Assembly (NCBI GenBank): GCA_016177805.1
Contig: JACOUN010000036.1
Coordinates: forward strand, 1-28,118
Reading direction: 5' to 3'
DNA length: 28,118 nucleotides
Source: Rhodocyclales bacterium
GTDB taxonomy: Bacteria; Pseudomonadota; Gammaproteobacteria; Burkholderiales; Rhodocyclaceae
This document shows, in pieces, positions 1 through 8,139 of this stretch. The position numbers were made by a program, and so were the translations under genes. The notes under the pieces are model-generated. The model saw nothing but the letters and a program-made list of their open reading frames with translations, did no database searches and was not told the DNA's origin. Position 1 is the first letter of the stretch, and the number at the start of each line of letters is the position of its first letter.

Positions 1-63
1 CAGCAGGTTCTCGGCGATCGCGGCACCGAGGCCACGGCTGTATCCGGTGACGATGGCTTTCAC
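1..63 (-). CDS. Short-chain dehydrogenase/reductase (SDR) family protein, N-terminal fragment; gene continues past the left window edge.
   Basis: Minus-strand translation from GTG at 63 reads VKAIVTGYSRGLGAAIAENLL. This is the classic SDR Rossmann N-terminus (TGxxxGxG). An AGGAA Shine-Dalgarno lies about 9 nt upstream. An alternative in-frame ATG at 114 has no SD. Confidence 0.5.
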   Translation of the reverse strand, partial: MKAIVTGYSRGLGAAIAENLL

Positions 64-200
64 TGGTGGGATTCCTGTGTTGTTCGGGGTGTTGTGAGCA
101 CGGGCGGCAACCATTGGTTTGTCTGTGGGACTCTACATCCATAACATCGTTGCAGGACATGGGGAGTGGGAATGAAACGCACCGCGACACCGGAGAAAAC

Positions 201-467
201 ATGAGACTCAAGCGCAACTTCATGCCGCGGCGTGAATTCCCGGTGACGCCCCGACGCGGCCGTAACCTTGTGCGCAACTTGATCGCGGGTTGTATGGGTG
301 CGCTGGTCGGTGGGATTGGCGCAGCGTTCTTCGGTGCCGGCGCCTTGGCGTGGTGGGTGGCGATGGCTGCCGGGTTTGCGGTGGGTGTGGCGAGTGTGAG
401 CGGGATCAAGCCGCCGGTGCTGTGGCAGAGCAGGCTGCCCGGTCATGGCCGGCGCGGCCCGCCATGA
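201..467 (+). CDS. Small (88 aa) glycine-zipper membrane protein; basic N-terminus, GxxxGxxxG-rich hydrophobic core.
   Basis: GGAGA SD sits 7 nt upstream of ATG 201. The product reads MRLKRNFMPRREFP...GALVGGIGAAFFGAGALAWWVAMAAGFAVGVASVSG. GC3-rich codon usage is consistent with coding. The overlapping antisense ORF 60..446 has an Arg/His/Pro-rich artefact composition. Confidence 0.5.
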   Translation: MRLKRNFMPRREFPVTPRRGRNLVRNLIAGCMGALVGGIGAAFFGAGALAWWVAMAAGFAVGVASVSGIKPPVLWQSRLPGHGRRGPP

Positions 468-490
468 CCGGGTGATGCGCGGCGTCGGGT

Positions 491-1414
491 TCAGGAGAAA
501 TCCAGGCCGAAGTACTTGAGTTCGATCTGGAGGCGGATGCAGATCCAGTCGTCCTCCTTGGCGATGCTGGCGTAGTGAGGCATGACATATGCCCTGAGAT
601 CGGCGGTCTTGCCTTTCAGCATGCTGTATGCGACGTCCACGTTGGCCGATATCGGGCCGACGAAGCTGGTGGTGACGGTAGTGAAGTTGCTGCCGAGGTT
701 GCCGCTGGCCGGCACGGGCTGGCCGGCGCTGGAGAGGATGGTCAGTCCTGACAGTTCTGCGGTGACGGCAAGGGTGCCGTCGGGGACCTGATGGAGCGTC
801 TGGAATTCCTGGGCCACCATCTTGCGCGGGTTTTCGTCCTTCACCACGTCCCTGAACTTGTAGTTGTTGAAGAACACATGGCGGCCCAGGGCCAGCACCC
901 GGAACGGTCCTTCCTTGATGATGACTTTCTTGTGCGGATCCTGGCCGGGAGCATCGAATTCCTTGGCCTTCTTCAGCACCAGGGCCATGCGTCGCAGGGC
1001 TTCGAGGATCGCACGCAGCGTTTCGGCGGTTGATCCGTGGTTGAACAGGACGATGCCCTGCTCGACGCCCCCTTCATCCAGGGGCTCGAAGTCCTCGGGG
1101 GCAAGCGTTCTGAAAAAGCCGTTCTGCAACTGCTCCCATAGCGCGGTGAAGGTTGGCAGATCTTCGTCGCGCCGGGTGATCTGTCCGTCCAGATAGCTGA
1201 CGAACCGCGAGACCAGCTCCGGTTCGGGCGGGCGGAATGCGATGGTCAGGTCGCGCAGCCAGGCGGCCATGCGCTCGGCCAGTTCGGGCGGGGGCGGTTC
1301 GCCGCGGCCGGGGAGCTGCCCGGCGCAGGCGGCGATCAGGTCGAGGATGCGGGCGCCGAAGGCAAAGGGTTCGGCCAGTGTCAGGTGGTTGTAGCTCTCT
1401 TGGTCTTGAATCAC
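491..1414 (-). CDS. Conserved hypothetical protein (about 307 aa); helical N-half, beta-rich C-half. No domain I can name.
   Basis: Long minus-strand ORF. The preferred start is GTG at 1414, preceded by GAGGGGGA 9 nt upstream; the ORF could extend to 1447. It is co-oriented and lies 116 bp downstream of rtcA. There is no GGQ motif, so it is not PrfH. I see no obvious HEPN Rx4-6H motif. Confidence 0.6.
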   Translation of the reverse strand: MIQDQESYNHLTLAEPFAFGARILDLIAACAGQLPGRGEPPPPELAERMAAWLRDLTIAFRPPEPELVSRFVSYLDGQITRRDEDLPTFTALWEQLQNGFFRTLAPEDFEPLDEGGVEQGIVLFNHGSTAETLRAILEALRRMALVLKKAKEFDAPGQDPHKKVIIKEGPFRVLALGRHVFFNNYKFRDVVKDENPRKMVAQEFQTLHQVPDGTLAVTAELSGLTILSSAGQPVPASGNLGSNFTTVTTSFVGPISANVDVAYSMLKGKTADLRAYVMPHYASIAKEDDWICIRLQIELKYFGLDFS

Positions 1415-1530
1415 GTTCGTTATCCCCCTCAAGTGGTGTGCGGGCACCGACGGCGCGCGCCGTCCGGTGCCGCAGCGGTTGTGGATGTGTTGCCATGGGC
1501 ATTATCGACATGGCCGGCACGATTTCCAGT

Positions 1531-2634
1531 TTAGATAACGCCGGGAGGAATGCAAAAGCTGGTTTGCGATTGGCATGATGACGATGGTTGCCCGGAGGCG
1601 GCAGGGTTCGCGGCAATCCGATGACCCTGTGCCGTCTTGGTCGTCTCGAAGCGCAGCGGCAGAAACCGCTGCACCACCTCCATGTTGGTTTCGAGGTGCG
1701 ATGACAGCGTGGCGGTGGTCAGGCTGCCGCCGCGCGCGAGCGCCAGCGGCAGCACCAGTTGATCGGCCAGGTGCTCGCCGACCGCGGCATCCGAGGCGCG
1801 GTCGGCGCGGGCGGCCTTGATCACGCGCGCGGCGACGGCTTCGGCGGGCAGGCCGCGTTCGCCGAAGGCGACGAACACTTCGGTCACTTCGCTGTGCTGG
1901 TCGACCAGCAGCAACGCGTTGCCTGGTCCTTCGCGAGCGGGCAGGACGCGCAGTTCAACTTCGGCACCCAGCGCGGCGGCTTCCACCATGGTCAGTTCGC
2001 GCCTGGCGACATCCACCGGCACGCCCGCGACCACGGCCACGGCGCGCGCCTGCAGCGGCGTGCCGCGCTCGCACAGATGCAGGGTCTTCAGCGCCGCGAC
2101 CGGGGTGACGCGCGCGCGGATCTCGCCCCCGCCGGCCGGGTAGAAGCCGTGGCGCAGCAGTTCGATGTCCATGTCCACCCCCATGCGGCGCATCAGCGGT
2201 AGCCAGGCGTGGATCAGGAAGTCGGCGGGCGGGGCGGCCGGGTTGTGCGTGCCGCCGCTGACCGTCACCGTGCTCGGCGCGTCGGCAAACCACAGCGCGG
2301 GGAGGATGGTTTGCAGCACCAGGGTGCAGCTACCGGCGCTGCCGATGGCGTGGCGATAGTCGCCGCCACGGATGCGTCCGGGCACGAAGTGCAGTGAGCG
2401 CGAGCCCAGCGCCGCGCCATCCACCCGCGCGCCGCAGATCTGCGCGGCGGCCTGCACGGCGGTCAGGTGCTGGCGCAGCAGCCCCGGTTTGGCGCGGCGG
2501 GCGCGGATGTGGTCGAGGCGCAGCGGCGTGCCGGTGATCATCGACAGCGTCAACGCGGTGCGCAGTATCTGCCCGCCGCCTTCGCCTTGTGAGCCGTCGA
2601 GCGTCACGGTGTCGAGCGTACAGGTGTCAGGCAT
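1531..2634 (-). CDS. rtcA: RNA 3'-terminal phosphate cyclase RtcA, with about 25 extra C-terminal residues compared with E. coli.
   Basis: LDGSQGEGGGQILRTALTLSMITG, RAKPGLLRQHLT and FAIGSAGSCTLVLQTILPALWFA match my recollection of E. coli RtcA closely. The ATG at 2634 overlaps the upstream gene's stop by 8 nt. Confidence 0.95.
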   Translation of the reverse strand: MPDTCTLDTVTLDGSQGEGGGQILRTALTLSMITGTPLRLDHIRARRAKPGLLRQHLTAVQAAAQICGARVDGAALGSRSLHFVPGRIRGGDYRHAIGSAGSCTLVLQTILPALWFADAPSTVTVSGGTHNPAAPPADFLIHAWLPLMRRMGVDMDIELLRHGFYPAGGGEIRARVTPVAALKTLHLCERGTPLQARAVAVVAGVPVDVARRELTMVEAAALGAEVELRVLPAREGPGNALLLVDQHSEVTEVFVAFGERGLPAEAVAARVIKAARADRASDAAVGEHLADQLVLPLALARGGSLTTATLSSHLETNMEVVQRFLPLRFETTKTAQGHRIAANPAASGQPSSSCQSQTSFCIPPGVI

Positions 2635-3445
2635 GGGAGTCTCCGGTCATGACGGTCTGGAGCAGGAAACGGTCGAGCGCCTCCGTGTCGCCTTGCGGCG
2701 TGCGGTAGGAAACGTCGCGGTCGACCTGCGCCAGCATGCCTTCTATGTAGGCGTGGATGGCAGGCCAGCGCGGCCCGTGCTCGGCTTCGCCGACGCGCAT
2801 CTTGACCGCCAGCAGGCGGTTGATTTCGTCGCGCAGGGTTTCGTCACTGATGGTTGCTTGCGCGAGTTCGGCGAAGCGCATCGGCGGCATGCTCCGGTAT
2901 TCGTCGATCCATTGCACCGCCAGCAGCGGGCGCAGCACGTACAGGTACTTTTTCAGACGCACCGTATCGCCCCGCAGATAGCCTTGAAAGTTCTTCTTGG
3001 CCATGGCGAGGTAGTGGTAGCGGCCGCGCATGGGCGAGAAGAACTGCGCCGCCAGCGCGCGCAGGCCGGCGGCGGCATCGGAGCGTTCGCGATAGATCAC
3101 CGGCGAGTCCAGCCATTCGAGCAGGGTCGGGTTGGAGCGGCGCAGCAGGCGCAGCGCCTTGCGCAGCTCCCAGCCGCTGACGTCCAGTTCGTCGCTGATC
3201 GGCAGTTCGATGACGTCGCGCTGCGCTTCGACGCGCAAATACCACGGCATGCGTGGCACGTAGACGAAGCGCACATCGTAGTCGCTGTCGGGCGAGGCGA
3301 AGCCCCAGCCCCGGCTCCCCGACTCGCAGGCGAACAGCACCCGCACCTCGTGGCGGGCCTCGATCTCGTCCAGCGCCTGCATCACGCGCTGGCGTACCGC
3401 CGGGTCTATCGGGTGGGCGGTGAGTATTGTGTTGCTTGTTTGCAT
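2627..3445 (-). CDS. Pol-beta-superfamily nucleotidyltransferase (272 aa); a predicted RNA-repair-associated NTase.
   Basis: The GS-x9-DxD minimal NTase signature is present in CESGSRGWGFASPDSDYDVRFVY. The gene sits between rtcB and rtcA in the same orientation. Its stop overlaps the rtcA start (ATGCCTGA), which suggests translational coupling. Confidence 0.85.
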   Translation of the reverse strand: MQTSNTILTAHPIDPAVRQRVMQALDEIEARHEVRVLFACESGSRGWGFASPDSDYDVRFVYVPRMPWYLRVEAQRDVIELPISDELDVSGWELRKALRLLRRSNPTLLEWLDSPVIYRERSDAAAGLRALAAQFFSPMRGRYHYLAMAKKNFQGYLRGDTVRLKKYLYVLRPLLAVQWIDEYRSMPPMRFAELAQATISDETLRDEINRLLAVKMRVGEAEHGPRWPAIHAYIEGMLAQVDRDVSYRTPQGDTEALDRFLLQTVMTGDSHA

Positions 3446-3482
3446 GACTATCTCTTTCGGTATGGTCGGCGGCGTGCCGTGG

Positions 3483-4724
3483 TCATCCTTTCACACACAC
3501 CACCTGACGCAGGGTGTGCACCACTTCCACCAGCTCGCGCTGGGCGTGCATCACCGCGTCGATGTCCTTGTAGGCCATCGGGATTTCGTCGATCACGTCG
3601 CTGTCCTTGCGGCATTCGACGTGGGCGGTGGCGCGCATCTGGTCTTCGATGGTGTAGCGGCGCTTGGCCTCGTTGCGGCTCATCGCGCGGCCGGCGCCGT
3701 GGCTGCAGGAGCAGAAGGCCGCTTCGTTGCCGAGGCCGCGCACGATGTAGCTGCGCGCGCCCATCGAGCCGGGGATGATCCCGAGTTCCCCTTTCTGCGC
3801 CGACACCGCGCCCTTGCGCGTGACCAGCACCTCCTGCCCGTAGTGGCGCTCGCGCTGCACGTAGTTGTGGTGGCAGTTCACCGCTTCCACGTCGGCGGTG
3901 AACGGCTTGGCGATCACCTGGCGCGCGGCGGTCACGACGTTCTGCATCATGGCCTGGCGGTTGCGCCGGGCGTAGTCCTGCGCCCAGCCGACGGCGGCGA
4001 CGTAGTCGTCGAAGTGCGTGCTGCCTTCCTCGAAGTAGGCCAGATCGCGGTGCGGCAAATCGGCGAGGTGCTGGCGCATGTCGGCCTGCGCCAGTTCGAT
4101 AAACACATTGCCGATCGCGTTGCCCACCCCGCGTGAGCCCGAGTGCAGCATGAACCACACCCGGTCGGCCTCGTCCAGGCACACTTCGATGAAGTGGTTG
4201 CCGGTTCCCAGCGTTCCAAGGTGCTTGTAGTTGTTGGTGTTCTTCAGGCGCGGGTATTTCTCGGTGATGCGCGCGAAGCCCGGCTGGAGTGCCTTCCACA
4301 GCGCGTCGACGTTGTCCGGCGGGTTCTCCCACGCGCCCTTGTCGCGGCCGCCGCGTGTCATCGTGCGGCCATGCGGCACGGCGCGTTCGATGGCGTCGCG
4401 CAGTCCGCCGAGCTGGTCCGGCAGATCGCGCGCGAGCAGGGTGGTGCGCGCGGCCATCATGCCGCAGCCGATGTCCACCCCGACGGCGGCCGGAATGATG
4501 GCGCCGACGGTCGGGATCACGCTGCCTATGGTCGAGCCCTTGCCCAGGTGTACGTCCGGCATCACCGCCAGATGGCGGAAGATGAACGGCATCCTGGCGG
4601 TGTTCATGAGCTGCGCGCGCGCTTCGGCTTCAACCGGCACGCCTTGCGTCCACATCCGGATCGGCGCGCCGTTGATCACCTCCAGCAGTTCGGAGGTCGT
4701 GGTGGTGTTGATGTTCGTTTCCAT
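3483..4724 (-). CDS. rtcB: RNA-splicing ligase RtcB (3'-phosphate/5'-OH ligase).
   Basis: Near-colinear identity with E. coli RtcB as I recall it: MWTQGVPVEAEARAQL, MPDVHLGKGSTIGSVIPT, CSCSHGAGR, PMAYKDIDAVM...VVCVKG. It is 413 aa. Confidence 0.97.
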   Translation of the reverse strand: METNINTTTTSELLEVINGAPIRMWTQGVPVEAEARAQLMNTARMPFIFRHLAVMPDVHLGKGSTIGSVIPTVGAIIPAAVGVDIGCGMMAARTTLLARDLPDQLGGLRDAIERAVPHGRTMTRGGRDKGAWENPPDNVDALWKALQPGFARITEKYPRLKNTNNYKHLGTLGTGNHFIEVCLDEADRVWFMLHSGSRGVGNAIGNVFIELAQADMRQHLADLPHRDLAYFEEGSTHFDDYVAAVGWAQDYARRNRQAMMQNVVTAARQVIAKPFTADVEAVNCHHNYVQRERHYGQEVLVTRKGAVSAQKGELGIIPGSMGARSYIVRGLGNEAAFCSCSHGAGRAMSRNEAKRRYTIEDQMRATAHVECRKDSDVIDEIPMAYKDIDAVMHAQRELVEVVHTLRQVVCVKG

Positions 4725-4755
4725 GTTCTTCTCTATCGTTTTCAGCTTGTTTGCG

Positions 4756-5895
4756 TCAGTTGCCCTTGAGTGTGACCAGGCCGTTCAGCACCTGATCCAG
4801 CCCGCCGAACACCGAGATCCGGTCGATCCGCTCCGCCACGCGCTCCAGCGTTTCCAGTTCCTTCAGGCGCAGCGCGGTCGGGTTGTCTTCCATGACCCGC
4901 GCGGTGTTGAGCAGCGAGCGGGTGGCCGAGGTTTCTTCGCGCCGGCGGATGACGTTGGCCTGGGCGGCCTTCTCCGCCTCGACCACCTGCGCGAGTATGG
5001 TGCGCATCTCGCCCGGCAGCACGATGTCCTTGACGCCGAGACTGCGGATCTCGATGCCGAATCCGGCCAGCCGCGTCACCGCGTACTCGCTCACCACCTC
5101 GTCGATGACGCGCTTGTTCTCCAGTAGTTCGTCGAGCGAACGGGTGCCCACCGCCGCGCGCAGCCCGAACTGCAGTTCGCGGTAGAGGTGTTCGACCGGT
5201 TTGGCGAGTTTCTCGCACGCCAGCAACACGTCGGCGTAACGCCAGGTCACGCCCAGGTTGATGCGCAGCGCGACCTTGTCGCGGGTCAGGATTTCCTGGC
5301 CGCTCACTTCCATGTTCTGCAGGCGCGTGTCCACCAGTTCGACCGAGATCTCGCGGTTGAAGCGCCAGTACGCCTCGATGCCGGGGTTCAGCATGCGTTC
5401 CATCCTGCCGTCCATCCTCACTATGCCGACATGGTAAGCCGGAACCTGCGCCAGCAGCACCGCGCCCAGGCCGGCCACCGGCCGGCCGCGCAGGCCGGGC
5501 TGGGTCAGGCGCATCGTCAGCGCGGCCGGCAGGGCGACCGTCTGGCGCAGATCGACCTTCTCCAGCCGGTGCGCGAGCACGCCCTTCCAGATCATGCGCC
5601 GGGTACCCGGCGGCAGGATTTCCACCAGCACGTCATTCTCGTAGCGCAGTCCCGCCTCGTCTTCGGACAGATCCATGATCTCGAAGCAGGATTCGACCAG
5701 ACGGGGTTCGCGGGCACGCAGATACTCACCCAGTTCGACATCGGTGAGCGCCGTGTCGATGCGCCATACCTGCACGCTCAGGCGGTTCATCGGGTCCCAG
5801 AAATAGTGGCGCCCGGCGCTCAGGAGGCGCACGAAATCCCCGTCCTTGAGCAAGGCGGCCTGTTCGTATTTCTTCACCACAAATCTCTTGATCAT
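4756..5895 (-). CDS. SPFH/band-7 (stomatin/flotillin-like) domain protein; first gene of the sigma54-driven rtc operon.
   Basis: The central SPFH core reads LRINLGVTWRY...GIEIRSLGVKDIVLPGEMRTILAQVVEAEKAAQANVIRRREETSATRSL, followed by a coiled-coil-like tail. I prefer the start at ATG 5895 (MIKRFVV), which has a GGAGAA SD 6 nt upstream. The ATG at 5913 lacks an SD. The gene ends 31 bp before rtcB. Confidence 0.88.
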   Translation of the reverse strand: MIKRFVVKKYEQAALLKDGDFVRLLSAGRHYFWDPMNRLSVQVWRIDTALTDVELGEYLRAREPRLVESCFEIMDLSEDEAGLRYENDVLVEILPPGTRRMIWKGVLAHRLEKVDLRQTVALPAALTMRLTQPGLRGRPVAGLGAVLLAQVPAYHVGIVRMDGRMERMLNPGIEAYWRFNREISVELVDTRLQNMEVSGQEILTRDKVALRINLGVTWRYADVLLACEKLAKPVEHLYRELQFGLRAAVGTRSLDELLENKRVIDEVVSEYAVTRLAGFGIEIRSLGVKDIVLPGEMRTILAQVVEAEKAAQANVIRRREETSATRSLLNTARVMEDNPTALRLKELETLERVAERIDRISVFGGLDQVLNGLVTLKGN

Positions 5896-6152
5896 GCTGT
5901 TCTCCAGTTTCATTCATGCGTTGCGTGAGCCGGTCAGCGCCGGCCCGGACGGACGCTTTGCGCGACACACCCAGGGAGGCGGGCGGTGAGCGCTGGGGGG
6001 AGCCACAAACGCGCTGCCCTCCCAGGCTCGCCGCCCGCCTTGCCGCGTGCGCGGCGCAGGGGTCGGTCCGGGCCGGCGACGGGGGCTTGCGCCCACCGCG
6101 ACCGGCGGTTGCTGCTTGACTGCGATGCTTCAGTCGTCTTTTGAGGACGATT

Positions 6153-6216
6153 TGGAGCGGGACTCGAACCCGCAACACGTTGCATATGCAACCGCTCTAC
6201 CCATTGAGCTATCCAG
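6153..6216 (-). ncRNA. tRNA-like element A (64 nt): canonical D-arm and T-arm, with shortened acceptor and anticodon-equivalent arms.
   Basis: Minus-sense sequence: CTGGA TA GCTC AATGGGT AGAGC G GTTGC-ATAT-GCAAC GTGTT GCGGG TTCGAGT CCCGC TCCA. The D-loop keeps the GG pair, and the T-loop TTCGAGT matches T-psi-C-G-A. The anticodon region is a 5-bp palindromic hairpin with a 4-nt loop, so no 7-nt anticodon loop exists. The acceptor helix is only 4-5 bp. It therefore cannot be a functional tRNA. Confidence 0.6.
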
Positions 6217-6265
6217 TGGTGTGCGATCCGGGAATCGAACCCGGATTTCTCAACCATGTCCGCAC
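6217..6265 (-). ncRNA. tRNA-like element B (49 nt): an acceptor/T-arm minihelix ending in an encoded ACCA, immediately 5' of element A.
   Basis: Minus-sense sequence: GTGCGGA CATGGTTGAGAAAT CCGGG TTCGATT CCCGG ATCGCAC A CCA. It has a perfect 5-bp T-stem, a TTCGATT loop and a 6-of-7 acceptor helix. The discriminator and CCA are encoded. It has no D or anticodon arms. Confidence 0.55.
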
Positions 6266-6393
6266 CATGACCGTGTCCTGCTGCCGCGGCATGCGCCAGA
6301 GCCAACGGGATTATTTCCGGGCCAGGCGCACCAGTGGGGCGGATGAACCCCGGCTCGTCGGCGTTGCAGCACTACAGCGGTCGAGCTACCCAT

Positions 6394-6410
6394 AGCGATA
6401 GGCGTGCCAG
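6394..6410 (-). promoter_or_regulatory. Sigma54 (RpoN) -24/-12 promoter for the tRNA-like/SPFH/rtcB/NTase/rtcA operon, divergent from rtcR.
   Basis: Minus-sense CTGGCAC-GCCTA-TCGCT. GG and GC are spaced exactly as in the TGGCAC-N5-TTGCW consensus. It sits 137 bp upstream of the rtcR start, as expected for an RtcR/sigma54 target. Confidence 0.6.
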
Positions 6411-6546
6411 TTGAGCCAGATTGGCGTGATAAATACGCAAGGCATTGAAATAGACGAGTAAATGCATGTTGCAGAAAGATCGTCGCAAGAACGACGCGCC
6501 GGCGTTACTATATGAAAGGCTAGTGAATTATCGTGTGGGATAAGCA

Positions 6547-8139
6547 ATGAAGAAGACGGTGGTGATCGGTTTTCTCGGGACTCAGCTCGACTACTCGGGG
6601 AATGGGGCCAAGCGGTGGGAGAGGTGGCGCCCCACCGTCAGCCTGTGCCAGCACGACGATCTGCTGGTGAGCCGGCTGGAACTGCTGCACGATGCACGTC
6701 GCCGGGGGTTGGCCGAGCGCGTCGCGCTCGACATCGCCAGCGTTTCACCGGAAACGCAAGTGCGCCGGGTTGAAACCGCGATCCGCGACCCGTGGGATTT
6801 CGAGGAGGTGTACACCGCGCTGCACGACTACGCGCGCGGCTACCCGTTCGACGTGGATAACGAGGACTACCTGATCCACATCACCACCGGCACCCACGTG
6901 GCGCAGATCTGCTGGTTCCTGCTGGCCGAGGCGCATTACCTGCCGGCACGGCTGCTGCAGACCTCGCCGCCACGCAAGCAGGCGCCGGCCGATTCGGTGG
7001 GCAGCTACACCCTGATCGATCTGGATCTGTCGCGTTACAACAAGATCGCGCAACGCTTCAGGCGTGAAGCCGAAGAAACCGTGACCCAGCTCAAGTCCGG
7101 CATCGCCACGCGCAACGCGCGCTTCAACGACATGATTGCGCAGATCGAGCACGTCGCCGGGCGCTCCTCCGCGCCGATGCTGCTCATCGGCCCGACCGGG
7201 GCGGGCAAGTCGTTTCTGGCCCGGCGCATCTTTGAGCTGAAGGTGCAGCGTCAGCGTTTCGCGGGTCGCTTCGTCGAAATCAACTGCGCCACGTTGCGCG
7301 GCGATTCAGCCATGTCGGCGCTGTTCGGTCACGTCAAGGGGGCGTTCACCGGGGCGCAGAGCGAGCGGCCGGGGTTGTTGCGTTCGGCGCATCAGGGGTT
7401 GCTGTTTCTCGATGAAATCGGGGAATTGGGCCTGGATGAGCAGGCCATGCTGCTCAAGGCGGTCGAGGAGAAACGCTTCTTCCCGTTCGGCGGCGACCGC
7501 GAGGTGGATAGCGACTTCCAGCTCATCGCCGGAACCCACCGCGATCTGCGGCAATGGGTGGCCGAAGGCCGTTTTCGCGAAGACCTCTACGCCCGCATCA
7601 ATCTGTGGACCTTCGATCTGCCGGGGTTGGCGGCGCGGCGCGAAGACATCGAACCGAACATCGATTTTGAACTGCGCCGCTATGCCGAAGCCGAAAACCA
7701 GCAGGTGCGCTTCAACGTCGAAGCGCGTCAGGCTTACTTGCGCTTCTGCAGCTCTGCCGAAGCGCGCTGGCCCGGCAATTTCCGCGAGCTGTCCGCGTCG
7801 ATCACGCGCCTGGCGACGCTAAGCGATGCGGGGCGCATCACCGTCGAGCATGTGCACGAGGAGATCGCCCGCCTGCGCCGCAGTTGGGGGGGGGATGAGT
7901 CCGGGGGCGGAGTGCTGAGCGCATTGCTGGGTGAGCGTGCGGAACAGATCGATCTGTTCGATCGCGCCCAGTTGTCCGCCGTGATCGCGGTGTGCCAGGC
8001 GTCGAACAGCCTGTCCGACGCCGGGCGCAAGCTGTTCGCGGTGTCACGTCAGGGAAAGAAGCAGCCCAACGACGCGGACCGGCTGCGCAAGTATCTGGCG
8101 CGATTCGGTCTGGATTGGGCTGCGCTCAGCGGCGCTTGA
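6547..8139 (+). CDS. rtcR: RtcR: a sigma54-dependent transcriptional activator with an N-terminal CARF domain, a AAA+ sigma54-interaction domain and a C-terminal HTH.
   Basis: The N-terminus (MKKTVVIGFLGTQLDYSGNGAKRWERWRPT...IASVSPETQV...PWDFEEVY...YLIHITTGTHVAQICWFLLAEA) matches my recollection of E. coli RtcR. Walker A GPTGAGKS and an ESELFGH-like SALFGH motif are present. Confidence 0.95.
   Translation: MKKTVVIGFLGTQLDYSGNGAKRWERWRPTVSLCQHDDLLVSRLELLHDARRRGLAERVALDIASVSPETQVRRVETAIRDPWDFEEVYTALHDYARGYPFDVDNEDYLIHITTGTHVAQICWFLLAEAHYLPARLLQTSPPRKQAPADSVGSYTLIDLDLSRYNKIAQRFRREAEETVTQLKSGIATRNARFNDMIAQIEHVAGRSSAPMLLIGPTGAGKSFLARRIFELKVQRQRFAGRFVEINCATLRGDSAMSALFGHVKGAFTGAQSERPGLLRSAHQGLLFLDEIGELGLDEQAMLLKAVEEKRFFPFGGDREVDSDFQLIAGTHRDLRQWVAEGRFREDLYARINLWTFDLPGLAARREDIEPNIDFELRRYAEAENQQVRFNVEARQAYLRFCSSAEARWPGNFRELSASITRLATLSDAGRITVEHVHEEIARLRRSWGGDESGGGVLSALLGERAEQIDLFDRAQLSAVIAVCQASNSLSDAGRKLFAVSRQGKKQPNDADRLRKYLARFGLDWAALSGA

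What the first reader, a model, noticed from the sequence alone, without database searches (positions are those of the whole stretch)
2627..3445. Minimal nucleotidyltransferase translationally coupled to RtcA
The pol-beta-type NTase (GS...DxD) stop overlaps the rtcA start by 8 nt (ATGCCTGA). This implies coupled synthesis of an enzyme that could add nucleotides to RNA 3' ends and a cyclase that converts 3'-phosphate to 2',3'-cyclic phosphate.

Possible functions are CCA-like repair, tailing, or nucleotidylation of the tRNA-like RNAs. The family is, as I recall, the novel NTase flagged computationally next to diverse RNA ligases, with no biochemical data.
Basis: partly seen in the sequence, partly recalled or inferred. 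Interest (0 to 1): 0.6.

Follow-up and report, generated by a model that had tools for sequence, protein, structure and literature searches.

The report
RlaP RNA-repair nucleotidyltransferase in rtc operon
[quoted passage not shown] It sits between the RNA ligase gene rtcB and the cyclase gene rtcA, the same arrangement already described and tested biochemically in Pseudomonas.

Summary
A 272-aa ORF lies at 2627-3445 on the minus strand. Its TGA stop overlaps the ATG of rtcA by 8 nt (ATGCCTGA), and a GGAG Shine-Dalgarno sequence sits 6 nt before that ATG.

The protein is a full-length match to Pfam PF10127 (RlaP, E 5.8e-96). The Pol-beta catalytic residues G43-S44, D55xD57 and D88 are invariant across 51 homologs. 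The predicted structure has an NTase domain followed by a helical domain.

The gene lies in a divergent rtcR / SPFH-rtcB-rlaP-rtcA cluster. Of 47 related genomic loci, 39 have rtcB upstream and 42 carry at least one rtc gene.

- "No biochemical data" is out of date. A December 2025 preprint shows that Pseudomonas RlaPs from the same rtcB-rlaP-rtcA operon add 1-2 NMPs to RNA 3'-OH ends, and it reports a crystal structure.
- The protein is not a "minimal" NTase.
- The overlap with rtcA is local. Only one of 21 relatives with rtcA downstream shares it, and more than half of the relatives have no rtcA downstream at all.

RNAs ending in 3'-phosphate are not RlaP substrates, so RlaP and RtcA do not form a simple two-step pathway. 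This is a known family in a known operon type, and interest is low.

The parts
2627..3445 (-). rlaP: 272-aa RlaP-family Pol-beta nucleotidyltransferase, with an N-terminal NTase domain and a C-terminal helical domain
   Evidence: Pfam PF10127 at E 5.8e-96, profile positions 1-248 of 249. PHROG 14344 'nucleotidyltransferase' at E 2.5e-94. G43, S44, D55, D57 and D88 are invariant in 51 sequences. AF2 model has pLDDT 90.1.
2627..2634 (-). 8-nt overlap ATGCCTGA between the rlaP stop (TGA) and the rtcA start (ATG), with a GGAG Shine-Dalgarno sequence at 2641-2644 inside the end of rlaP
   Evidence: Read directly from the sequence. Not conserved in relatives.
1531..2634 (-). rtcA, RNA 3'-terminal phosphate cyclase
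   Evidence: Pfam PF01137 at E 3.1e-83. NCBIfam NF003246 equivalog, 452 bits against a cut-off of 352.
3483..4724 (-). rtcB, 3'-phosphate/5'-OH RNA ligase; its stop lies 37 nt upstream of the rlaP start
   Evidence: Pfam PF01139 at E 9.9e-129. Coordinates.
4756..5913 (-). SPFH/Band-7 domain protein, first ORF of the operon
   Evidence: Pfam PF01145 at E 3e-25. Present in the same position in 20 of 47 related loci.
6153..6245 (-). tRNA-like / Y-RNA-like module in the operon leader
   Evidence: Rfam tRNA hit of 40.8 bits at 6153-6215. Sub-threshold YrlA hit of 20.2 bits at 6194-6245. ARAGORN finds no tRNA. Elements at the equivalent position in 7 of 8 relatives that have SPFH.
6394..6409 (-). 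candidate sigma-54 -24/-12 promoter element, TGGCACGCCTATCGCT
   Evidence: One mismatch to TGGCAC-N5-TTGCW. The pattern count in the whole window is not above chance, so this call rests on its position between rtcR and the operon.
6547..8139 (+). rtcR, divergently transcribed sigma-54 activator with a CARF-type sensor domain
   Evidence: NCBIfam NF038308 RtcR equivalog, 842 bits against a cut-off of 650. Pfam PF06956 plus PF00158.

Best explanation
[quoted passage not shown] It is expressed from an RtcR/sigma-54-controlled RNA-repair operon with the order leader RNA, SPFH, rtcB, rlaP, rtcA.

The mechanism is inferred from the characterised Pseudomonas orthologues. When tRNAs or other RNAs are cleaved and then lose one or two further nucleotides, RlaP uses its three acidic residues (D55, D57, D88) and divalent metal, preferably Mn2+, to add one or two NMPs from any NTP to the 3'-OH of the broken end. 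This happens without a template. A fraction of the molecules then regain the correct length and sequence once a ligase reseals them.

The 8-nt stop/start overlap with rtcA is ordinary operon compaction. It probably gives some translational coupling in this organism, but it is not part of the conserved design.

- **Shown here:** family membership, an intact catalytic motif, the two-domain fold and the operon context.
- **Inferred:** the activity, the substrates and the coupling.
For: - Full-length PF10127 match at E 5.8e-96.
- G43, S44, D55, D57 and D88 are invariant across 51 sequences.
- A confident AF2 model (pLDDT 90.1) shows an NTase domain, a helical domain and a terminal helix. This matches the published description of the PfRlaP crystal structure (PMC12776372).
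- rtcB lies 37 nt upstream and rtcA overlaps downstream, with rtcR divergent. This is the same order reported for P. fluorescens and P. aeruginosa.
- Of 47 related loci, 39 have rtcB upstream on the same strand and 42 have at least one rtc gene.
- Published biochemistry: 1-2 NMP added to RNA 3'-OH, RNA only, preference for Mn2+, and partial rescue of aminoacylation of a tRNA lacking one nucleotide.
- Earlier computational prediction of the same role.
Against: - RlaP products end in 3'-OH, while RtcB needs a 3'-phosphate or 2',3'-cyclic phosphate. The authors themselves flag this mismatch as unresolved.
- No 3'-phosphatase or RNA 3'-kinase is recognisable among the five annotated genes of this cluster. 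The unannotated 318-aa ORF downstream of rtcA cannot be ruled out.
- No in vivo phenotype has been reported for any RlaP.
- I could not measure identity to PfRlaP or PaRlaP. Their sequences were not retrievable, and the structure is not in the PDB copy.
Confidence: 0.85

Rival explanations
1. RlaP and RtcA are deliberately co-translated because they act in sequence, or as a complex, on the same RNA end.
For: There is an 8-nt ATGCCTGA overlap, and the GGAG for rtcA lies inside the end of rlaP. One relative, L025, has the same type of overlap.
Against: - Among the 21 relatives with rtcA downstream, most have 11-70 nt spacers. Four have 0.3-2 kb gaps, at least two of which hold an inserted gene.
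- 26 of 47 relatives have no rtcA downstream of rlaP at all.
- RlaP does not accept 3'-phosphate RNA and leaves a 3'-OH, which RtcA cannot cyclise (PMC12776372).
Confidence: 0.08
2. The protein is a small-molecule nucleotidyltransferase of the antibiotic-resistance type (ANT(4')/KNTase, AAD(9) or Lnu-like).
For: The best solved-structure neighbours are ANT(4'), AAD(9) and LinB, with the same NTase-plus-helical-domain layout (Foldseek E about 7e-6, TM 0.45).
Against: - Identity to these structures is only 10-16%.
- Pfam returns no family other than RlaP at E<=0.01.
- The gene is embedded in the rtc operon in 42 of 47 relatives.
- Pseudomonas RlaPs labelled RNA only among the macromolecule fractions (RNA, DNA, protein) isolated from E. 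coli.
Confidence: 0.02
3. The protein synthesises a nucleotide signal, in the manner of Hailong HalB or CD-NTases. The signal could, for example, feed the CARF domain of RtcR.
For: HalB, an oligodeoxyadenylate synthase, is among the fold neighbours (E 1e-4, TM 0.43-0.54). RtcR carries a CARF-type sensor.
Against: [quoted passage not shown]
- RlaP has no hit in PADLOC.
- The published assays show RNA 3'-end extension.
Confidence: 0.03
4. The protein is the MNT antitoxin or toxin of a HEPN-MNT module ("minimal nucleotidyltransferase").
For: Only the shared GS...DxD Pol-beta motif.
Against: - At 272 aa with two domains it is not minimal.
- Pfam returns nothing but RlaP at E<=0.01.
- The flanking genes are rtcB and rtcA, not a HEPN-domain gene.
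Confidence: 0.01

Closest known systems
PfRlaP / PaRlaP (Pseudomonas fluorescens and P. aeruginosa RlaP; Carruthers, Fatma & Huang, bioRxiv December 2025, PMC12776372)
   Same: - Same Pfam family, PF10127.
- Same gene order rtcB-rlaP-rtcA, with rtcR alongside.
- Same two-domain architecture, and three conserved catalytic aspartates.
   Different: - The host here is a betaproteobacterium-like organism. The nearest homologues are from Rhodocyclaceae, Gallionellaceae and Chitinibacteraceae, at no more than 76% identity.
- Identity to the Pseudomonas enzymes could not be measured.
- This locus has an 8-nt overlap with rtcA, an SPFH gene and a tRNA-like leader. The paper's text does not discuss any of these.
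RlaP family as defined computationally (Burroughs & Aravind 2016, NAR 44:8525; as cited in PMC6514570 and PMC7824862)
   Same: A Pol-beta NTase encoded next to an RNA ligase, predicted to restore nucleotides lost from cleaved RNA before ligation.
   Different: None of substance. This is a standard RtcB-associated member. Other members pair with 5'-phosphate ligases or occur in phages, for example T4 NrdC.11.
Kanamycin nucleotidyltransferase ANT(4') (PDB 6un8, 1kny)
   Same: Closest solved fold: a Pol-beta NTase domain followed by a helical domain (Foldseek E 7e-6, TM 0.45).
   Different: Only 12-15% identity. It acts on a small-molecule substrate, belongs to a different Pfam family and has no RNA-repair context.
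CCA-adding enzyme
   Same: Template-independent addition of nucleotides to an RNA 3'-OH by a Pol-beta superfamily enzyme.
   Different: RlaP shows little NTP specificity, adds only 1-2 nucleotides, and prefers the anticodon-loop break end to the acceptor end (PMC12776372). There is no Pfam match to the CCA-adding or poly(A) polymerase families.

Membership tests
RlaP (Pfam PF10127) | Sequence match to the family profile above the curated threshold, over the full length | tested here: met
   321.4 bits against a cut-off of 23, E 5.8e-96, profile positions 1-248 of 249. All of the top 120 homologues carry PF10127.
RlaP (Pfam PF10127) | Pol-beta NTase catalytic signature: G[GS] followed by DxD, plus a third acidic residue | tested here: met
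   G43-S44, D55, D57 and D88 are invariant in 51 sequences down to 43% identity.
RlaP (Pfam PF10127) | N-terminal NTase domain, C-terminal helical domain and a final helix that returns to the NTase domain (PfRlaP crystal structure) | tested here: inconclusive
   The AF2 model (pLDDT 90.1, pTM 0.87) has mixed helix and strand elements up to residue 120, mainly helices (with two short strands) from 122 to 240, and a terminal helix at 254-270. This agrees with the published description.
RlaP (Pfam PF10127) | Encoded next to an RNA ligase gene | tested here: met
   rtcB ends 37 nt upstream on the same strand. 39 of 47 relatives have rtcB upstream.
RlaP (Pfam PF10127) | Adds 1-2 NMP to the 3'-OH of RNA | not testable with these tools
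   Shown only for PfRlaP and PaRlaP (PMC12776372).
Minimal nucleotidyltransferase (MNT of HEPN-MNT modules) | Single small NTase domain (about 100-150 aa) paired with a HEPN-domain partner | tested here: not met
   The protein is 272 aa with two domains. Pfam returns only RlaP at E<=0.01. The neighbours are rtcB and rtcA.
Aminoglycoside / lincosamide nucleotidyltransferases | Sequence membership in the ANT or Lnu families | tested here: not met
   No Pfam or NCBIfam match. Resemblance is at fold level only, at 10-16% identity.
RtcR-regulated rtc RNA-repair operon | rtcB and rtcA co-oriented, with a divergent rtcR encoding a CARF plus sigma-54 AAA+ activator | tested here: met
   RtcR matches equivalog NF038308 at 842 bits. 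RtcA and RtcB match their Pfam families. A candidate -24/-12 element lies at 6394-6409; this last point is weak.

The most novel reading that the evidence does not exclude
The tight rlaP-rtcA junction reflects a real functional pairing that resolves the published end-chemistry puzzle. RlaP in vivo might install a nucleotide that carries, or acquires, a 3'-phosphate, for example by using a 3'-phosphorylated donor nucleotide. RtcA could then cyclise that end and RtcB could ligate it.

A related possibility is that the physiological target is the co-transcribed tRNA-like leader RNA of the operon. Nothing here excludes either idea.

The overlap is not conserved, however, and more than half of related operons lack rtcA downstream.
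Probability: 0.04. Interest if true: 0.7.

Novelty: already known. Interest (0 to 1): 0.15.

Why it matters
For genome annotation, this gene can be named rlaP instead of "nucleotidyltransferase domain-containing protein" (no NCBIfam model matched it), and the cluster can be called an rtcR / SPFH-rtcB-rlaP-rtcA RNA-repair operon.

The open biological question is not specific to this locus. An enzyme that makes 3'-OH ends has to cooperate somehow with a ligase that needs 3'-phosphate ends. This window adds no new leverage on that question beyond another example.

The side observation of a conserved tRNA-like leader with non-conserved "anticodons" is more likely to repay further work than the NTase itself.

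Tried and rejected
- **PDB sequence search** with the protein found no hit at E<=0.01. The PfRlaP crystal structure is evidently not in the copy, so no direct comparison was possible.
- **Foldseek against PDB** returned only distant Pol-beta relatives: ANT(4'), 3c18, HalB, AAD(9) and LinB. These were rejected as family assignments because identity is 10-16% and the sequence profile is unambiguous.
- **NCBIfam and PADLOC** gave no model for RlaP.
- **The Burroughs & Aravind 2016 paper** (PMC5062991) is not held, and a search for it by title found nothing. Its content is cited only through later papers. The supplementary files of PMC12776372 are also not held, so the PfRlaP and PaRlaP sequences could not be obtained.
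- **The sigma-54 pattern search** is not above chance across the window: 14 hits against 16 expected. The site at 6394-6409 is proposed from its position only.
- **The terminator and promoter scan** of 1-7000 found nothing above shuffled expectation, and nothing at the rlaP junctions. The two terminator-like hits inside rlaP (3046-3074) are within the shuffled expectation.
- **The alternative rtcA start** (GTG, 27 nt downstream) would abolish the overlap. I consider it less likely because it lacks a Shine-Dalgarno sequence, but it is not excluded.

Full report
**Observation.** The window carries a 272-aa ORF at 2627-3445 on the minus strand, starting at ATG. The reverse complement of 2627-2634 is ATGCCTGA.

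That ATG is preceded by GGAG with a 6-nt spacer (ccGGAGactcccATG). The only other in-frame start is a GTG 27 nt further on, and it has no Shine-Dalgarno-like sequence. The overlapping start is the better call, though it is not proven.

A longer 468-aa ORF on the opposite strand (2372-3778) covers the same region. This is the common antisense artefact of GC-rich DNA, and the profile matches below show that the minus strand codes.

**Identity of the gene.** Pfam places the protein in PF10127 (RlaP, "RNA repair pathway DNA polymerase beta family"). The score is 321 bits at E 5.8e-96, across profile positions 1-248 of 249, and no other family matches at E<=0.01. NCBIfam has no matching model and PADLOC has none. 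PHROG 14344 ("nucleotidyltransferase") matches at E 2.5e-94.

All of the best 120 hits carry PF10127. The nearest distinct relative is 76% identical, and the named ones come from Rhodocyclaceae, Gallionellaceae, Chitinibacteraceae relatives and Ralstonia.

In an alignment of 51 sequences reaching down to 43% identity, the Pol-beta signature residues G43-S44, D55, D57 and D88 are invariant. So are many other residues, including R45, W47, R59, R76-D77, R95-K96, H144-Y145, R163, K165, R172 and K215.

AlphaFold2 gives a confident model (pLDDT 90.1, pTM 0.87). It has mixed helix and strand elements up to about residue 120, a mainly helical region (with two short strands) at 122-240, and a terminal helix at 254-270. 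This matches the published description of the PfRlaP crystal structure: an NTase domain, a helical domain, and a last helix that returns to the NTase domain.

No solved structure matches by sequence. By fold, the nearest are kanamycin NTase ANT(4'), the uncharacterised 3c18, Hailong HalB, AAD(9) and LinB, all at 10-16% identity and TM 0.3-0.5. These are superfamily neighbours, not family members.

**Context.** On the same strand, rtcB (3483-4724, PF01139 at E 1e-128) ends 37 nt upstream of the ORF. An SPFH/Band-7 gene (4756-5913) precedes rtcB, and rtcA (PF01137; NCBIfam equivalog at 452 bits) follows the ORF. The RtcR activator gene (6547-8139; NCBIfam equivalog at 842 bits) is divergent.

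Between rtcR and the SPFH gene lies a candidate sigma-54 element (6394-6409), proposed from its position only. There is also a tRNA-like module.

**Related loci.** I examined 47 related loci from reference genomes.

| Feature | Loci (of 47) |
|---|---|
| rtcB upstream on the same strand | 39 (32 directly adjacent) |
| rtcR present | 37 |
| SPFH gene present | 20 |
| rtcA downstream | 21 (17 adjacent) |
| At least one rtc gene | 42 |

The conserved association is therefore with rtcB and rtcR, not with rtcA. Many Enterobacterales (Erwinia, Pantoea, Xenorhabdus, Citrobacter) have rtcR / (SPFH) / rtcB / rlaP with no rtcA downstream.

**The overlap.** Among the loci that have rtcA downstream, an in-frame stop upstream of rtcA rules out any overlap in several cases. 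Unambiguous junctions have spacers of 11-70 nt. Four loci have gaps of 0.3-2 kb, and in at least two of them the gap holds an inserted gene. Only L025 (Xylophilus) shows the same 8-nt type of overlap.

The overlap in the window is thus a local compaction of the operon. It plausibly allows translational coupling here, but it is not a designed or conserved feature.

**What is known.** RlaP was named from comparative genomics as an NTase that associates with several kinds of RNA ligase. It was predicted to restore nucleotides lost from cleaved RNAs before ligation (as cited in PMC6514570 and PMC7824862).

A December 2025 preprint (PMC12776372) characterises the RlaPs of P. fluorescens and P. aeruginosa. 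Both are encoded between rtcB and rtcA, next to rtcR, which is exactly the arrangement seen here. Its main findings are:
- The enzymes label RNA only among the E. coli macromolecule fractions tested (RNA, DNA, protein).
- They add one or two NMPs (or dNMPs) to RNA 3'-OH ends, with little NTP specificity.
- They do not act on 3'-phosphate RNA or on DNA.
- They prefer Mn2+ or Co2+.
- They favour the 3' end at an anticodon-loop break over the acceptor end.
- They partly restore aminoacylation of a repaired tRNA that had lost one nucleotide.
- A 2.1 A structure is described.

The authors propose RlaP as an antidote to nucleases such as RloC and PaOrf2, which excise nucleotides after cutting. They also point out an unresolved problem: RlaP leaves a 3'-OH, while RtcB needs a 3'-phosphate or cyclic phosphate.

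- "No biochemical data" is out of date.
- "Minimal nucleotidyltransferase" is the wrong label for a 272-aa two-domain protein that has no HEPN-domain gene among its operon neighbours.
- The suggested assay on 3'-phosphate RNA has been done, and the result was negative.
- CCA-like repair and long tailing are disfavoured by the published specificity.
- A simple RlaP-then-RtcA sequence does not fit the end chemistry.

**Most likely mechanism.** RNA damage activates RtcR, and sigma-54 transcription produces the leader, SPFH, RtcB, RlaP and RtcA. RlaP adds 1-2 untemplated nucleotides to the 3'-OH of over-trimmed RNA ends, so that a fraction of resealed molecules regain function.

Shown here are membership, an intact active site, the fold and the context. 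Inferred are the activity, the substrates and the coupling. Confidence is about 0.85.

**Novelty.** This is a known family in a known and biochemically studied operon arrangement, so it is already known. Interest is low (0.15).

The most novel reading not excluded is that the RlaP-RtcA junction reflects a true functional pairing that solves the 3'-end incompatibility, or that RlaP acts on the operon's own tRNA-like leader. I put this at about 4%.

**Side observations.**
- The tRNA-like leader element sits at the same position in 7 of 8 SPFH-containing relatives that I scanned. Where ARAGORN calls it a tRNA, the "anticodon" differs each time and is often unusual: AAC, AAT, TGT, GGT and ATG. In the window it has only a 4-nt anticodon loop, and it shows a weak YrlA-like T-arm to D-arm arrangement. 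No Rsr/Ro60 gene is present among the annotated genes of the cluster.
- In some relatives, HEAT-repeat proteins or a Barstar-domain protein are inserted between rtcB and rlaP.
- A 318-aa ORF downstream of rtcA (491-1447) has no family match and no counterpart in the relatives.

Noticed in passing
window 6153-6245 (-); L003 2925-2998, L004 2827-2901, L005 2896-2959, L013 2204-2277, L018 3178-3250, L021 3287-3361, L029 2834-2904: A tRNA-like module lies in the rtc operon leader, between rtcR and the SPFH gene. It is conserved in position in 7 of 8 SPFH-containing relatives scanned, and absent at the Rfam gathering score from the three relatives scanned that lack SPFH. Where ARAGORN calls it a tRNA, the anticodons are not conserved and are often unusual (AAC, AAT, TGT, GGT, ATG). 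In the window the anticodon loop is only 4 nt, and a weak YrlA (Y RNA-like) match spans the T-arm to D-arm. No Rsr/Ro60 gene is present among the annotated genes of the cluster. It might act as a decoy or sensor RNA for anticodon nucleases that feeds RtcR.
   Followed up: partly
window 6394-6409 (-): A candidate sigma-54 -24/-12 element, TGGCACGCCTATCGCT, lies upstream of the tRNA-like leader. It is plausible from its position, but the pattern count in the window is not above chance.
   Followed up: partly
window 4756-5913 (-): A 385-aa SPFH/Band-7 protein is the first ORF of the rtc operon. It is present in the same place in 20 of 47 related loci. Three Enterobacterales loci (L031, L032, L044) have rtcR, SPFH and rlaP with no rtcB. 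Its role in RNA repair is unknown.
   Followed up: partly
window 491-1447 (-): A 318-aa ORF lies 83 nt downstream of rtcA. It has no Pfam, NCBIfam, PHROG or PADLOC match and no tblastn counterpart in any of the 47 related loci. A sigma-70-like promoter match sits just upstream, at 1501-1528.
   Followed up: partly
L002 2793-6001, L006 4553-5908, L011 3731-5984, L013 5260-5739, L012 4268-5927: In several relatives extra genes are inserted between rtcB and rlaP. These include HEAT-repeat proteins (L002, L006), a Barstar-domain (RNase inhibitor) protein (L013) and ORFs with no family match (L002, L011, L012).
   Followed up: partly
L002, L011, L016, L017, L021 (about 9-11 kb, minus strand): A second, divergent RtcB paralogue (29-31% identity to the window RtcB) is encoded a few kb downstream of the rtc operon, on the opposite strand, in Chitinibacteraceae-like genomes.
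   Followed up: no
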